Assembly (NCBI GenBank): GCA_002898775.1
Contig: BEHK01000018.1
Coordinates: 7,615-31,614 of the forward strand
DNA length: 24,000 bases
Source of the DNA: a bacterium HR08
GTDB taxonomy: Bacteria; Acidobacteriota; Blastocatellia; HR10
Direction of reading: 5' to 3'
The translations under genes and the position numbers were made by a program. The notes beneath the pieces were generated by a model. That model saw only the letters and a program-made list of their open reading frames with translations. It did no database searches and had not been told where the DNA came from. This document shows positions 15,085 through 22,119 of the stretch, piece by piece (position 1 is the stretch's first letter; each line of letters starts with the position of its first letter).

Positions 15085-15167
15085 ATACGACCGCGCGCTC
15101 TTAGTTCTGTGCCTGAACGGCACACGATCCCAAGGATCGCGTGGGAGAGCCTTTTGAGGAGGGGCTT

Positions 15168-15614
15168 ATGCTACAACTGAAGCGCATCTTGTGTCCGACG
15201 GATTTCAGCGAAGCCGCTCGACGAGCGTTCGATCTGGCGATTCCTTTGGCGGAAGCCTTCGGCGCGGAGCTCTATGTGATCCACGTCATCCCCGCGCTCC
15301 CGTACGTGGAGCCGCGACCGACGTATCATTTCGACGTGCCCGAATACGAGCGGGCGCTTCATGAGGAAGCGGAGCGGCAGATGGTGGCGTTTGTGAACGA
15401 GCTGGCGACGCGCGTCGTCATTCATCCGATCATCGCGCATGGCGACGTGGCCGCGCAGATCCTGCGGGCGGCTGAGGAGCAGGCTGTGGACATGATCGTC
15501 ATCGCGACGCATGGGCGCACGGGATGGCGCCATTTGGTCTTCGGCTCGGTCGCCGAGAAGATCGTGCGCTTGGCGCGCTGTCCGGTGCTCACCGTGCGTC
15601 AGCCTTCGGCGTGA
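15168..15614 (+). CDS. Universal stress protein (UspA family)
   Basis: ATG at 15168 lies 5 nt after GGAGG. LKRILCPTDFSEAARRAF ... MIVIATHGRTGWRHLVFGSVAEKIVRLARCPVLTV is the classic USP ATP-binding pattern G-x2-G-x9-G(S/T). Confidence 0.85.
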   Translation: MLQLKRILCPTDFSEAARRAFDLAIPLAEAFGAELYVIHVIPALPYVEPRPTYHFDVPEYERALHEEAERQMVAFVNELATRVVIHPIIAHGDVAAQILRAAEEQAVDMIVIATHGRTGWRHLVFGSVAEKIVRLARCPVLTVRQPSA

Positions 15615-16940: not shown

Positions 16941-18873
<1,933 letters not shown>

Positions 18874-18913
18874 TCTCCCTCCGAATCGAGGGATGAGCGT
18901 TGGAGGAGGGGAC

Positions 18914-19192
18914 ATGCCGCGCACGAAATCGGCGAAGAAGCAATTGCGGAAGAGTCTGAAGCGGCGCGAGATCAATCGGCGCAATCTCTCGCGTCTGCGC
19001 ACGTATATCAAGAAGCTGCGCCGGGCGATCGAGGCGGGCGATGCGCCATTGGCGCGAGAGCTTCTGCCACAGACGGTCTCGATCATTGATAAGTCCATTC
19101 AGAAAGGCGTCATTCATCGGAATGCGGCGGCTCGGTACAAGTCGCGCCTGACGACTCTGGTCCATCGCTTGGTGGCGGCGACTCAGGCATGA
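18914..19192 (+). CDS. rpsT: 30S ribosomal protein S20
   Basis: ATG at 18914 follows GGAGGAGGGG. MPRTKSAKKQLRKSLKRREINRRNLSRLRTYIKK is the typical S20 N-terminus. Confidence 0.95.
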   Translation: MPRTKSAKKQLRKSLKRREINRRNLSRLRTYIKKLRRAIEAGDAPLARELLPQTVSIIDKSIQKGVIHRNAAARYKSRLTTLVHRLVAATQA

Positions 19193-19292
19193 GACCGAGG
19201 CGGGACATACGCGGACGAAGGTTCGGACCACGATTCTCTCTCTCCCCCTGTTCTGCCCCATATGGGGGGAGATCGTGACCGGGAGGGGGCCT

Positions 19293-21056
19293 ATGGAGAA
19301 GCTCACGATCGGCCGTCTGCGGGATACGCTCTCGGGGCGGCGCGTCTTCGTGCGCATAGATGGGGACGTGCCGCGGCGGGAGGCGACGGGGGAGATCGCC
19401 GATGAGTTCAAGCTGCAGCAGGTGGTACCGACGCTGCGGTTGCTGATCGAGGCGGGAGCCCGCGTCGTCATCGGCACGCATTGGGGACAGCCGGGCGGGC
19501 GCGTGGTGGAAGCGTGGCGCGTGGATCCTCTCGCCGAGCGCTTGAGCCACATCTTGGGACGGCCCGTTCGGAAAGCGAATGAGTGCGTGGGGCGTCAGAT
19601 CGAACGGCTCGTGGATGAGCTGAAGCCGGGCGAGGTCCTGATGTTGGAGAATCTTCGCTTCCACGCGGAGGAGGATCTGGACGATGCGGCCTTCGCCCGT
19701 CAGTTGGCCGATCTGGCCGACGTCTATTGCAACGATGCCTTTGGACTGGCCCATCGTGGTCAGGCCTCGACCGTGGGCATCACGCGCTATGTGACTCCAG
19801 CGGCCGCCGGATTGCTGATGGAGCGCGAGCTGCTGATGTTGGAGGCCGTGTTGAAGAGTCCCCAGAAGCCGTTCCTGGCGGTCGTCGCGGGGGCGCGACT
19901 GTCGGAGAAATTGCCGGTCTTGGAGAACCTGCTCGCCCGCGTGGATCGCCTGTTCATCGGCGGCGCGCTCTGTTTCACCTTCCTCAAGGCGCAAGGGTAT
20001 GAGGTCGGGCATTCCCCGGTGGAGACCGCGTTTCTGAAGCTCGCCGAGCATTTCCTGGCGCGGGCCGAGCAGGTGCTCGGGAGCCGAGGGGAGATCTATC
20101 CGACCGGACTCGTCTTCCCTTCGGATTTCGTCGTCGTGGATGCGGAGGCCTTGGAGCAGGCGCAGGGAGATCCGGAGAAGATCGCCGCGCTCCCGCGCCA
20201 TGTCGTCGTGGCGTCGGAGATCCCGGCGTATGCCGTGGCCGTGGACATCGGGCCGATGACGGTCCATCATCTGGTGGAGTTGTTTGATTGGGCGCGCACG
20301 ATTTTTTGGAACGGGCCGCTCGGGCGGTGGGAAGACGCCCCGTTCGCAGAGGGGACGCGCGCCCTGGCTCAGTATGTGACCGAGCGCGTTCCGGCGGAGA
20401 AGAAGGACATCATCGTCTGCGGCGACAGCTTGACCCAAGCCATTCGTCAATTCGGCCTCCCCGTGGAGCGGATTCGCCATCTGAGCACGGGCGGCGAATC
20501 GGCGCTGAAGGTTCTGGCTGGGATGCCGCTGCCGGCGGTCGCGGCCTTGAGCGAGAGCGCGCAACCGGAACGGGCTGAGCGCGCGCGTCGCATTCTCATC
20601 CCTGTGGATGGATCGCCCAATGCCCGCTTGGCCGTCGAGCGGGTGAGTCAGTTGCTGGATGCCGCGCGGGCGGAGATCACGTTGCTGTATGTCGCGCCAC
20701 TTCCTCGGATCGAGCGCAGCAGCTATGTCAGCCCGGAGCGAGAGGCCGAGTGGCGAGCCGCGCATCAGTTGGAGGCCGAACGCATCTTCGCCGAAGCCAA
20801 CGCCGAGCTCGCGCGACGTGGGTTGACGTCGCATCGGCAGCTCATGGTCATGGGCGATCCGGCCGAGGAGATCCTGAAGCTCGCGGATCAGATGGGCGCG
20901 GATCTCATCGTCATGGGGGCGCGCGGACGCAGTGGGATCTTCCGCTTCCTCATGGGCAGCGTCAGTCGCAAGGTCCTCGATCAGGCCAGGTGTCCCGTCC
21001 TTTTGGTGCGCGTGCCGGATGAGGCGTTGGTGAAATCGGGCTTGATGGAAGGATGA
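19293..21056 (+). CDS. Phosphoglycerate kinase-like domain (approx. 19293-20550) fused in-frame to a C-terminal universal stress protein domain (approx. 20584-21030)
   Basis: ATG at 19293 follows GGGAGGGGG. PGK-like blocks: LENLRF, DAFGLAHRGQAS, DRLFIGGALCFTFLKAQG, DIGPMT, IFWNGPLGRWE, HLSTGGESALKVLAG.PLPAVAAL. The USP part is RRILIPVDGSPNA...LIVMGARGRSGIFRFLMGSVSRKVLDQARCPVLLV. It is a single uninterrupted ORF. Confidence 0.85.
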   Translation: MEKLTIGRLRDTLSGRRVFVRIDGDVPRREATGEIADEFKLQQVVPTLRLLIEAGARVVIGTHWGQPGGRVVEAWRVDPLAERLSHILGRPVRKANECVGRQIERLVDELKPGEVLMLENLRFHAEEDLDDAAFARQLADLADVYCNDAFGLAHRGQASTVGITRYVTPAAAGLLMERELLMLEAVLKSPQKPFLAVVAGARLSEKLPVLENLLARVDRLFIGGALCFTFLKAQGYEVGHSPVETAFLKLAEHFLARAEQVLGSRGEIYPTGLVFPSDFVVVDAEALEQAQGDPEKIAALPRHVVVASEIPAYAVAVDIGPMTVHHLVELFDWARTIFWNGPLGRWEDAPFAEGTRALAQYVTERVPAEKKDIIVCGDSLTQAIRQFGLPVERIRHLSTGGESALKVLAGMPLPAVAALSESAQPERAERARRILIPVDGSPNARLAVERVSQLLDAARAEITLLYVAPLPRIERSSYVSPEREAEWRAAHQLEAERIFAEANAELARRGLTSHRQLMVMGDPAEEILKLADQMGADLIVMGARGRSGIFRFLMGSVSRKVLDQARCPVLLVRVPDEALVKSGLMEG

Positions 21057-21057
21057 G

Positions 21058-22119
21058 TCAGGGGAGGACGCGCACGCGCCCTTCGGCTCCGGCGGTGATC
21101 TCCCCGATGACGGACGCCGCGAGCGCGCCGTTCTCGCGCAGCGCTTCGCAGAGCGCTTCCGTCCGCTCCGACGCGACGGCGATCAGAACCCCACCCGACG
21201 TTTGCGCATCGCAGAGCACAAGTTGCGCGTCTTCGGAGACGTCCGGCGCCCAGTCCACAAACGGGGCGAGATAGGCGTGATTGGCGAGCGTGCCGCCGGG
21301 CACGATGCGTTCGGCGACCAGCTCCCACGTCCCCGTGAGCACCGGAACGCGCGAGAGCCAGATCGTGGCGCTCACGCCGCTGGCGACGAGCAGATTGCGC
21401 AAGTGGCCGAGCAGTCCGTATCCGGTGACATCCGTCGCGGCGTGCACACCGATCTGCCGCATGGCGCGCGCGGCCGCGCGGTTGAGCGTCGTCATGACGC
21501 GGATGGCTTCGGCTTCGATCTCCGGTGAGACGCGCTCGCGCTTGATGCCCGTTGTGATGATCCCCAGACCGAGCGGTTTCGTCAGGATCAGGTGATCGCC
21601 CGGACGCGCGCCCGAGTTCGGGATGATCTCCGCCGGGCGCGCGAGGCCGAGCACGGCCAAGCCGTATTTCGGCTCCAGGTCGTCCACCGTATGTCCGCCG
21701 AGGATCACGACGCCCGCTTCGCGCGCCTTGTCGCTGCCGCCGCGCAAGATCTCGCTCAAAAGGCGGAGGGGGAGTCGCTTCGCCGGGAACCCTACGAGAT
21801 TCAGCGCCACGAGCGGCTCGACGCCCTTGGCATAGAGGTCGCTGAGGGCATTGGCGACGGCGATCTGTCCGAACGCATAGGGGTCGTCCACAATGGGCGT
21901 GAAGAAATCCGTAGTGAGGACGAGCGCCATCTCCTCATTGAGGACATAAACGCCCACATCATCGGAGGTCGCCACTCCGATGAGCACATGCGGGTCATCC
22001 ACCGGTGCCAGTGTGCTCAGGACCTCGACCAGGTCCTTCTGGCTGAGCTTGCACGCTCAACCGGCACCGTGGCTCAGTTGCGTCAGCCGAATGCGTTCGG
22101 TCTCCCCCATATCGCTCAT
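21058..22119 (-). CDS. selD: Selenide, water dikinase (selenophosphate synthetase) with in-frame TGA = selenocysteine at codon 21 (minus-strand TGA at 22059-22057); alternative start ATG at 22110
   Basis: The ORF track starts at 22002 (MDDPHVLIGVATSDD...). The same frame continues upstream through a single TGA as MSDMGETERIRLTQLSHGAG-U-ACKLSQKDLVEVLSTLAPV. This aligns with the E. coli SelD N-terminus [21 protein letters not shown], placing U at catalytic Cys17. The rest is canonical SelD (TTDFFTPIVDDPYAFGQIAVANALSDLYAKG, ATDVTGYGLLGHL, CDAQTSGG). Confidence 0.9.
22015..22048 (-). promoter_or_regulatory. SECIS-like stem-loop downstream of the selD UGA
   Basis: Minus-strand RNA after the UGA reads GCGUGCAA, then GCUC-AGCCAGA-AGGACCU-GGUCG-AGGUCCU-GAGC. 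That gives a 7-bp upper stem, a 5-nt G/U-containing apical loop 27-31 nt after the UGA, and a 4-bp lower stem. This is within the spacing range described for bacterial SECIS elements. Confidence 0.65.

What the first reader, a model, noticed from the sequence alone, without database searches (positions are those of the whole stretch)
19293..21056. PGK-like protein with degenerate catalytic motifs fused to a universal stress protein domain
One uninterrupted 587-aa ORF joins a phosphoglycerate-kinase fold to a complete USP domain through a short linker (SESAQPERAERARR). The only PGK fusion I know of is PGK-TIM in Thermotoga; I do not know of a PGK-USP architecture. Several PGK signature blocks, quoted from memory of the family, are substituted. 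RVDFNVP becomes RIDGDVP. SHLGRP becomes THWGQP. GGAKVxDK becomes AGARLSEK. GGGDS/T becomes VCGDS. STGGGAS becomes STGGESA. Other blocks are retained (LENLRF, AHRxxAS, WNGPxGxxE). There is also an insertion of about 30-40 aa before DIGP. This looks like a divergent paralogue, possibly with altered substrate or a regulatory role coupled to an ATP/AMP-binding USP module, rather than the housekeeping pgk. It sits near eno but not in a gap-pgk-tpiA cluster.
Basis: partly seen in the sequence, partly recalled or inferred. Interest (0 to 1): 0.6.

Follow-up and report, generated by a model that had tools for sequence, protein, structure and literature searches.

The report
Stress-linked PGK-like kinase fused to USP
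This is a real, selection-maintained second copy of the glycolytic enzyme phosphoglycerate kinase, with a remodelled active site and a fused ATP-binding stress-protein domain; it belongs to a small undescribed acidobacterial family that usually sits in dormancy gene clusters.

Summary
Window 19293-21056 (+) is one 587-aa ORF with a PGK domain (Pfam 362 bits) and an ATP-type USP domain (122 bits). It is not the housekeeping pgk: the same genome has a canonical gap-pgk-tpiA-secG cluster on another contig, 44% identical.

The fusion is not an artefact. It occurs in all 7 species of the genus and in about 90 metagenomic clusters. All fusions form one clade outside 85 canonical PGKs. dN/dS is 0.06-0.13, as low as for the canonical pgk.

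Residues invariant in those 85 PGKs are replaced family-wide: K215R, R38K, R65 lost, N25D, GGGD to VCGD, GGG to GGE. The nucleotide/Mg residues are kept.

New here:
- A sister "type B" PGK-USP has lost catalytic, Mg and USP-ATP residues. It, or its USP remnant, lies directly upstream of type A in five of nine contexts.
- Outside this genus the gene sits in dormancy clusters (hibernation factor, baeRF, thioredoxin, DUF5335, Usp, HSP20, Lon).

Best reading, about 50%: a USP-gated, stress-specific PGK-derived phosphotransferase with weakened or changed acceptor specificity. Main rival, about 30%: a non-catalytic adenylate-binding regulator. No paper describes it; databases call it "phosphoglycerate kinase". 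The scan had not noted this fusion elsewhere.

The parts
19293..21056 (+). PGK-like/USP fusion gene (587 aa, 'type A')
   Evidence: Uninterrupted ORF. Pfam PGK plus Usp. Orthologues at 84-98% identity in all 6 other species of the genus.
19281..19286 (+). Ribosome-binding site GGGAGG, 6 nt before ATG 19293
   Evidence: Read directly from the sequence. It lies downstream of the alternative GTG at 19275.
19329..20522 (+). PGK-fold domain (residues 13-410)
   Evidence: PF00162, 362 bits. AlphaFold2 model has mean pLDDT 86; best Foldseek hit is 1PHP with TM 0.96 and rmsd 2.0 Å.
19896..19898 (+). Arg202 codon, at the position of the catalytic Lys215 of PGK
   Evidence: R in 88/89 fusions. K in 85/85 canonical PGKs. 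Alignment to 1PHP.
20073..20192 (+). Region holding about 19 extra residues before DIGP (residues about 261-300)
   Evidence: BLASTP against the genome's own PGK. Family comparison. Residues 266-270 have low pLDDT.
20415..20429 (+). VCGDS (residues 375-379), replacing the GGGDS/T phosphate loop; includes the hallmark Cys376
   Evidence: HMMER alignment to 1PHP. C in 44/45 fusions; 0/85 canonical PGKs.
20553..20594 (+). Linker SESAQPERAERARR (residues 421-434)
   Evidence: Translation. pLDDT is below 50 at residues 424-428.
20586..21011 (+). USP domain (residues 432-573), ATP-binding type
   Evidence: PF00582, 122 bits. Best PDB sequence relatives are nucleotide-binding USPs: 4WNY, 2PFS, 5AHW, 2JAX, 1WJG, 1MJH.
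20916..20966 (+). USP nucleotide motif G542-x2-G545-x9-G555-S556-V-S558
   Evidence: Read from the sequence. G542, G545 and G555 are at least 90% conserved and S558 is invariant in 89 family members.
18893..19192 (+). rpsT (ribosomal protein S20) directly upstream; possibly co-transcribed
   Evidence: PF01649, 95 bits. A sigma-70-like promoter lies at 18841-18870 and no terminator-like site was found between the genes. The order rpsT, PGK-USP, selD is conserved in all 7 species.

Best explanation
The gene encodes an accessory, stress-associated paralogue of phosphoglycerate kinase. It belongs to a small family, here called type A, that arose once by fusion of a PGK to an ATP-binding universal stress protein domain.

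Shown:
- The protein keeps the full two-lobed PGK fold and the MgADP/ATP site: K219, N336, E343, D374 and DIGP.
- Every element that contacts the transferred phosphate or the 3-phosphate of 3-PG is changed in a conserved way. K215 becomes R and R38 becomes K, a charge-conserving swap. R65 is lost, N25 becomes D, GGGD becomes VCGD, and GGG becomes GGE.
- Both domains are under purifying selection as strong as that on the housekeeping pgk.
- In most lineages the gene is part of a dormancy/stress cluster. It is often preceded by a catalytically dead sister copy (type B) or by that copy's USP remnant.

Inferred:
- The protein still binds adenine nucleotide and carries out phosphoryl transfer, but with weakened or altered acceptor specificity. 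The acceptor may be 3-PG/1,3-BPG at low efficiency, or a related, less anionic carboxylate.
- The C-terminal USP domain binds ATP and dimerises, with itself in this genus and with the type-B USP elsewhere. This would couple activity to the adenylate or stress state.
- It does not replace the housekeeping PGK.
For: - Domains and fold.
- Canonical pgk elsewhere in the genome.
- Single clade of all fusions (SH-aLRT 100), separate from 85 canonical PGKs including the genome's own.
- Residue pattern in 89 family members against canonical PGKs. R202 is 88/89, K206 88/89, E347 87/89, D378 85/89 and K40 81/89.
- The roles of R65, R122, R170, H62, D23 and N25, and of the R65/R170-D218 salt bridges, are taken from the review PMC7729029.
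- dN/dS is 0.06-0.13 for the PGK domain and 0.02-0.09 for the USP domain, against 0.05-0.135 for the canonical pgk in the same genome pairs.
- The USP ATP motif is conserved.
- Stress-cluster context in 8 independent contigs or genomes.
- The type-B partner and its decay to a bare USP.
Against: - No activity, ligand-binding or expression data exist.
- All five transition-state contacts are altered at once, which could abolish catalysis.
- Within type A the 3-phosphate ligands drift. H62 becomes S and R170 becomes L in a subclade of about 23 members, and R122 is kept in only 66/89. A fixed substrate would be expected to hold these in place.
- In this genus the dormancy-cluster context and the type-B partner are missing.
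- Domain contacts and the distance between the two conserved cysteines could not be read from the model.
Confidence: 0.5

Rival explanations
1. Pseudoenzyme or sensor. The PGK-like body no longer catalyses phosphoryl transfer. It serves as an adenylate-binding (ADP/ATP) module that, with the ATP-binding USP, reports energy state to partners in the hibernation/stress module, such as HPF-like protein, baeRF, thioredoxin systems or proteases.
For: - K215, R38, R65, G371/G372 and G396 are all replaced.
- The 3-PG phosphate ligands vary among type-A subclades, while the nucleotide-site residues stay nearly invariant.
- The sister type B has clearly lost catalysis (K215 to L/A/Q/G, D374 to S/G/R/E) yet is retained, so non-catalytic roles exist in this superfamily.
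- The gene is repeatedly adjacent to HPF-like and baeRF_family10 genes. Those two are already linked to translational shutdown (PMC6514570).
- Dead multidomain PGKs are known in kinetoplastids (PMC7729029).
Against: - The catalytic positions are not lost but swapped to the other basic residue and then held: R 88/89 and K 81/89.
- The Mg ligand D374 and the hinge residue E343 are kept. This contrasts with type B and looks like maintained chemistry.
- The PGK domain is as constrained as the housekeeping enzyme.
Confidence: 0.3
2. Ordinary PGK isozyme. It catalyses the normal 1,3-BPG/3-PG reaction with near-normal efficiency and is simply a stress- or temperature-adapted second copy with a regulatory tail.
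For: - Strong Pfam PGK score and a PGK fold.
- In this genus H62, R122, G166, H169 and R170 are retained.
- The gene lies near eno.
- All databases name it phosphoglycerate kinase.
Against: - The substituted positions are invariant in 85/85 canonical PGKs from more than 20 phyla.
- R65 and its closed-state salt bridge partner are altered (for their roles).
- The bulky V and C in the Gly loop and E at G396 sit at the phosphate-transfer site.
- Wherever the gap cluster is assembled, a canonical pgk is present as well.
Confidence: 0.12
3. Assembly, frameshift or gene-calling artefact that joins a pgk and a neighbouring usp gene.
For: None found. The genome is a 73%-complete, 197-contig assembly.
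Against: - The same 587-aa frame, without stops, is present in 6 other species of the genus.
- It is also present in about 90 independent metagenomic protein clusters from JGI, ENA, NCBI and Logan.
- dN/dS is low across the junction.
Confidence: 0.01

Closest known systems
Canonical bacterial phosphoglycerate kinase (e.g. Geobacillus stearothermophilus PGK, PDB 1PHP; the genome's own pgk at G000 C25)
   Same: Same two-domain fold (TM 0.96, 40% identity to 1PHP; 44% to the genome's own PGK). The nucleotide/Mg site, LENLRF, AHR, DIGP and WNGPxGxxE blocks are conserved.
   Different: K215R, R38K, R65Q, N25D, GGGD to VCGD and GGG to GGE. About 19 extra residues. A C-terminal USP domain. Not in a gap-pgk-tpiA cluster. 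Forms a separate clade.
Thermotoga maritima PGK-TIM fusion (NCBIfam PRK13962)
   Same: A bacterial PGK with a second domain fused at its C-terminus.
   Different: The partner there is triosephosphate isomerase, the next pathway enzyme, and the PGK is catalytically canonical. Here the score against that model is 365 bits against a cut-off of 883, and there is no TIM domain.
Kinetoplastid multidomain PGK-like proteins (PAS-PGK; flagellar PGKL with a cNMP-binding domain; 'dead' PGKs), review PMC7729029
   Same: A PGK domain fused to a small-molecule sensor domain. Active and predicted-dead paralogues coexist beside housekeeping PGKs.
   Different: Those are eukaryotic, with different partner domains (PAS, CNB, TM). 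They arose independently. No USP fusion is mentioned.
ATP-binding universal stress proteins (MJ0577 1MJH; M. tuberculosis Rv2623 2JAX/3CIS; Thermus TTHA0895 1WJG; TeaD 3HGM)
   Same: The USP domain has the G-x2-G-x9-G-S motif and the beta-1 Asp, and matches these proteins at E 1e-11 to 1e-16. Association with a dormancy regulon, as for the Rv2623/DosR regulon, is from my own knowledge.
   Different: Those are stand-alone or tandem USPs. Here the domain is covalently joined to a PGK-derived body.
HPF-baeRF-1 gene neighbourhoods (Burroughs and Aravind 2019, PMC6514570)
   Same: In relatives the gene sits in the same operon-like cluster as an HPF-like (S30AE) protein and baeRF_family10.
   Different: That paper's main text does not mention PGK or USP. 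In the window's genus the linkage is broken: baeRF10 lies on contig C16.

Membership tests
Phosphoglycerate kinase (Pfam PF00162; EC 2.7.2.3) | Sequence and fold membership of the PGK superfamily | tested here: met
   PF00162 at 362 bits against a cut-off of 27. Foldseek hit to 1PHP with TM 0.96 and E 4e-42.
Phosphoglycerate kinase (Pfam PF00162; EC 2.7.2.3) | Catalytic Lys215 and Arg38 flanking the transferred phosphate | tested here: not met
   Arg202 and Lys40 occupy these positions. Canonical PGKs have K 85/85 and R 85/85. The catalytic roles are from my own knowledge of human and yeast PGK.
Phosphoglycerate kinase (Pfam PF00162; EC 2.7.2.3) | 3-PG site: D23, N25, H62, R65, R122, R170 | tested here: not met
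   D23, H62, R122 and R170 are kept. N25 is D and R65 is Q. Roles are per PMC7729029.
Phosphoglycerate kinase (Pfam PF00162; EC 2.7.2.3) | Gly-rich phosphate loops GGGD(S/T) and (S/T)TGGG | tested here: not met
   The loops read VCGDS and STGGE. Canonical PGKs have GGG 85/85 and G396 84/85.
Phosphoglycerate kinase (Pfam PF00162; EC 2.7.2.3) | Nucleotide/Mg site (K219, N336, E343, D374, DIGP) | tested here: met
   K206, N340, E347, D378 and D318-I-G-P are present, each conserved in at least 85/89 family members.
Phosphoglycerate kinase (Pfam PF00162; EC 2.7.2.3) | It is the genome's glycolytic pgk (sole copy, gap-pgk-tpiA context) | tested here: not met
   A canonical pgk sits in a gap-pgk-tpiA-secG cluster on C25.
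Phosphoglycerate kinase (Pfam PF00162; EC 2.7.2.3) | 3-PG-dependent kinase activity | not testable with these tools
   Needs an enzyme assay.
Universal stress protein, ATP-binding (UspFG/MJ0577) class (PF00582) | USP domain | tested here: met
   PF00582 at 122 bits against a cut-off of 24.
Universal stress protein, ATP-binding (UspFG/MJ0577) class (PF00582) | G-x2-G-x9-G-(S/T) nucleotide motif and beta-1 Asp | tested here: met
   G542, G545, G555-S556 and D439 are present and conserved in type A. They are lost in type B.
Universal stress protein, ATP-binding (UspFG/MJ0577) class (PF00582) | ATP binding and dimer formation | not testable with these tools
   Inferred only. The conserved upstream USP-type partner suggests pairing.
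PGK-TIM bifunctional protein (NCBIfam NF010569) | Equivalog score and a TIM domain | tested here: not met
   365 bits against a cut-off of 883, with only profile positions 2-434 of 645 matched. No TIM domain in Pfam.
Kinetoplastid PAS-PGK / PGKL | PAS or cNMP-binding domain joined to PGK | tested here: not met
   Pfam finds only PGK and Usp.

The most novel reading that the evidence does not exclude
The PGK-USP pair is a PGK-derived adenylate-state switch, not a glycolytic enzyme. Type A would be nucleotide-competent and type B, or its USP remnant, catalytically dead. The two would form an active/dead heterodimer, possibly thiol-controlled through the two hallmark cysteines. The switch would belong to the HPF-baeRF ribosome-hibernation module and gate entry into or exit from translational dormancy according to ADP/ATP. 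In the window's genus it has become a homodimeric single-gene version placed behind rpsT.
Probability: 0.2. Interest if true: 0.8.

Novelty: new variant of a known kind. Interest (0 to 1): 0.55.

Why it matters
PGK is among the most conserved enzymes known, and bacterial variants are thought to be limited to the PGK-TIM fusion. This family shows a bacterial PGK scaffold remodelled at exactly the phosphate-transfer residues, fused to a nucleotide-sensing stress domain and duplicated into a competent copy and a dead copy. It is embedded in dormancy clusters with hibernation factor and release-factor-like genes.

If it is active, it defines a new specificity or a new regulatory mode for the PGK fold. 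If it is inactive, it is a bacterial counterpart of the kinetoplastid dead PGKs and a candidate energy sensor for dormancy in Acidobacteriota, an abundant but poorly understood soil phylum.

There is also a practical point. These proteins are all auto-annotated as "phosphoglycerate kinase", which can mislead metabolic reconstructions of MAGs.

Tried and rejected
- **Pattern scan of species-representative genomes.** It returned mostly canonical PGKs because the patterns were too general. Two apparent full-length matches, L040 (Nitrospirota) and L065 (Archangium), turned out to be ordinary pgk-tpiA pairs and clustered with canonical PGKs. I rejected them as fusions.
- **G003, which seemed to have only the fusion and no canonical pgk.** It also lacks gap and tpiA. 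The whole cluster is therefore unassembled, and this is no evidence that the fusion is a sole PGK.
- **The stand-alone Usp at window 15141-15614 as the missing partner.** It is an ordinary ATP-motif USP and is not related to the type-B/partner USPs. Rejected.
- **DUF5335 in the own genome.** No hit, but the controls gave no hit either, so the result is uninformative.
- **MAFFT alignment of VCGDS.** MAFFT shifts it by one column against GGGDS. I used the BLAST and HMMER alignments, which pair D with D and S with S.
- **Literature.** Three searches and one PGK review found no description of a PGK-USP protein.
Full report
**1. Observation**

Window 19293-21056 (+) translates without a stop into 587 residues. 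The longest frame begins at GTG 19275. ATG 19293 is the better start for two reasons. A GGGAGG ribosome-binding site lies at 19281-19286, and the N-terminus aligns from Met1 with 88 homologues.

Pfam finds PGK at residues 13-410 (362 bits) and Usp at residues 432-573 (122 bits). The one correction concerns the extra sequence before DIGP. It is about 19 residues, not 30-40: about 11 are family-wide and 8 are specific to this genus.

**2. It is a paralogue, not the housekeeping pgk**

The same assembly has 2.6 Mb in 197 contigs and is 73% complete. It carries a second PGK on contig C25 that scores 513 bits. That copy sits in a gap-pgk-tpiA-secG cluster and is 44% identical to the PGK part of the fusion.

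Five of the six other species of the genus have both genes. The sixth, G003, lacks gap, pgk and tpiA together. That is an assembly gap, not a biological absence.

**3. It is a real, conserved family**

A search of 5.8 billion proteins returned about 90 clusters of 575-585 aa with both Pfam domains, at 47-56% identity. There were also five clusters at 84-97% identity. Named members come from "bacterium HR10", uncultured Acidobacteriota and Blastocatellia MAGs. All are called simply "phosphoglycerate kinase".

Genome searches gave this distribution:
- All 7 species of the genus have the fusion. So does one other genus of the same order.
- It was not found in the 29 other genomes of the class that were searched.
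- It was not found in any of 400 genomes (228 genera) sampled across the phylum.

At 50% clustering of 1.84 billion representatives, only about 13 clusters span both domains.

In a maximum-likelihood tree, all fusions form one clade (SH-aLRT 100). That clade is separated from 85 canonical PGKs of more than 20 phyla. The genome's own canonical PGK groups with other Blastocatellia PGKs. Two apparent fusions from Nitrospirota and Archangium were ordinary pgk-tpiA pairs.

Within the genus, dN/dS is:

| Gene or domain | dN/dS |
|---|---|
| Fusion, PGK domain | 0.06-0.13 |
| Fusion, USP domain | 0.02-0.09 |
| Canonical pgk, same genome pairs | 0.05-0.135 |

Both domains are therefore under strong purifying selection.

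**4. Anatomy of the active site**

I use human PGK1 numbering. I derived it from the motifs and checked it against the residue roles given in PMC7729029 and the HMMER alignment to 1PHP.

Changed in the family:
- K215 to R (88/89).
- R38 to K (81/89).
- R65 to D/N/K/Q/E (Q in the window protein).
- N25 mostly to D.
- F24 to A/G/V.
- G371-G372 to (V/L/I)-C, with Cys in 85/89.
- G396 to E/Q/A.
- D218 to E.
- H172 is variable.

Each of these positions is invariant or nearly so in the 85 canonical PGKs.

Kept in the family:
- D23, K219, G237-G238, N336, E343, G373, D374 and S/T375.
- The DIGP and WNGPLG blocks.

The nucleotide/Mg side is therefore intact. Everything that touches the transferred phosphate and the 3-phosphate of 3-PG is remodelled. 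According to the review, R65, R122 and R170 bind the 3-phosphate. R65 and R170 also form the salt bridges with D218 that stabilise the closed catalytic state.

The window's genus keeps H62, R122, G166, H169 and R170. A subclade of about 23 members has H62 to S, H169 to N and R170 to L. The acceptor site thus drifts within the family while the nucleotide site does not.

The AlphaFold2 model has mean pLDDT 86 and pTM 0.71. It is a normal open-form PGK, with TM 0.96 to 1PHP against 0.75 to closed human PGK. A flexible linker (residues 424-428) joins it to a USP domain.

**5. The USP domain**

It carries G542-x2-G545-x9-G555-S556-V-S558 and the beta-1 Asp439, all conserved in type A. Its closest solved relatives are nucleotide-binding USPs: 4WNY, 2PFS, 5AHW, Rv2623 (2JAX), TTHA0895 (1WJG) and MJ0577 (1MJH).

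**6. A dead sister paralogue**

The remaining full-length clusters have the same architecture but a different residue pattern. I call them type B. They include the copies that lie directly upstream of type A on contigs L099 and L101.

Type B has lost:
- K215 (L/A/Q/G/V in its place).
- The Mg ligand D374 (S/G/R/E/H).
- R122 and R170.
- The USP ATP motif.

Type B also changes N336 to H. It branches inside the fusion clade.

On other contigs the upstream gene is a decayed form of type B:
- On L095 it is a collapsed 163-aa stub, made of a PGK N-terminal piece plus a USP.
- On L096/L097 it is a bare 151-aa degenerate USP. A 151-aa Usp gene occupies the same place on P0065's contig, for which no DNA was available, so its kinship was not checked.

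The L095 and L096 forms are 51-59% identical to the type-B USP domains. What persists in the partner is its USP domain. This suggests USP-USP pairing with type A, but that is an inference.

The window's genome has no type B. Its stand-alone Usp at 15141-15614 is unrelated to the partner lineage.

Two cysteines are kept throughout both types. They are rare or absent in canonical PGKs:
- C146, at the position of human V161.
- C376, at the position of human G372.

Their meaning is unexplained.

**7. Context**

I examined eight contexts outside the genus. Six of them repeat a stress/dormancy set:
- an HPF-like S30AE protein, often fused to sigma-70 region 4
- thioredoxin, AhpC and a DsbA-like protein
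- baeRF_family10
- type B or its remnant, then type A
- DUF5335, PsiE and further Usp genes
- DoxX, HSP20, Lon, FtsH, an SDH-type protease and DnaK/GroEL
- G6PD, transketolase and a response-regulator-fused disulphide reductase

The other two (L098, L100) hold only a few of these genes.

The HPF-baeRF association is already published as a putative translational-shutdown module. That paper's main text does not mention PGK or USP (PMC6514570).

In the window's genus the gene has moved. The order methyltransferase-like ORF, rpsT, PGK-USP, convergent selD is conserved in six of the seven species; in G006 no match to the methyltransferase ORF was found. A promoter-like site lies before rpsT, and no terminator-like site was found between rpsT and the gene. 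FtsH and baeRF10 remain together on contig C16.

**8. Interpretation**

Shown:
- It is an accessory, constrained, monophyletic PGK-USP paralogue.
- The nucleotide site is intact and the acceptor/transfer site is remodelled.
- The family is linked to stress clusters.
- A dead sister copy exists.

Inferred:
- It still binds MgADP/ATP.
- Its function depends on the ATP-binding, dimerising USP.

I favour retained but altered or weakened phosphotransfer, at about 0.5. The reasons are that the two catalytic basic residues are swapped rather than lost and are then held fixed, that D374 and E343 are kept, and that type B shows what real loss of catalysis looks like in this family.

The main rival is a non-catalytic adenylate sensor, at about 0.3. 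It is supported by the simultaneous change of all transition-state contacts and by the drift of the 3-phosphate ligands.

An ordinary PGK isozyme (about 0.12) is unlikely, given that these positions are invariant in 85 of 85 canonical enzymes. An artefact is excluded.

**9. Novelty**

The domains are known. The protein has been in public databases since at least the UniRef entry H5SFW2 and is mis-named as plain PGK. Three literature searches and the 2020 PGK review found no description. That review lists PGK-TIM, PAS-PGK, PGKL and dead kinetoplastid PGKs.

The scan's earlier notes hold no PGK-USP finding on other DNA. They hold only USP-fused GpgS enzymes, a loose parallel, and the neighbouring selD note.

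I rate it a new variant of a known kind, with interest 0.55.

**Limits**

- No biochemistry was possible.

Noticed in passing
L099:2966-4036; L107:10665-11741 (-); end of L095: A ribosome-hibernation-factor domain (S30AE) fused to sigma-70 region 4 (about 356 aa). It recurs beside baeRF_family10 and the PGK-USP genes. This is an unusual architecture for a hibernation factor.
   Followed up: no
L099:4268-5935; L101:3895-5529; L095:5490-5981; L096:5516-5971: Type-B PGK-USP with catalytic, Mg and USP-ATP residues lost. It lies directly upstream of type A and has decayed in some lineages to a stub or a bare degenerate USP.
   Followed up: partly
proteins P0123, P0126 (about 797 aa), P0127 (1918 aa): Proteins that match the PGK profile in 2 to 5 separate stretches, possibly tandem PGK-PGK repeats. 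The C-terminal copy of P0123/P0126 has canonical catalytic residues.
   Followed up: no
window 19256-19269: A CCCC-ATAT-GGGGGG hairpin in the 100-nt spacer between the rpsT stop (19192) and the PGK-USP ribosome-binding site. The spacer is only about 32-45 nt in three other species of the genus.
   Followed up: no
window 21058-22002 (-): A convergent AIR-synthase-family gene whose stop lies 1 nt from the PGK-USP stop. An earlier scan note reads it as a selenocysteine-containing selD that extends to 22119.
   Followed up: no
window 18265-18873 (+): A 202-aa ORF between eno and rpsT that matches only the C-terminal part of SAM-methyltransferase profiles and overlaps the end of eno. It is conserved in six of the seven species of the genus.
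   Followed up: no
G000 contig C16 (L109:7222-11899, - strand): The gene order FtsH, a LigB/AMMECR1 fusion, baeRF_family10 (with a zinc-ribbon tail), then a PIG-L deacetylase. This looks like the remnant of the dormancy cluster from which the PGK-USP gene has moved away in this genus.
   Followed up: partly
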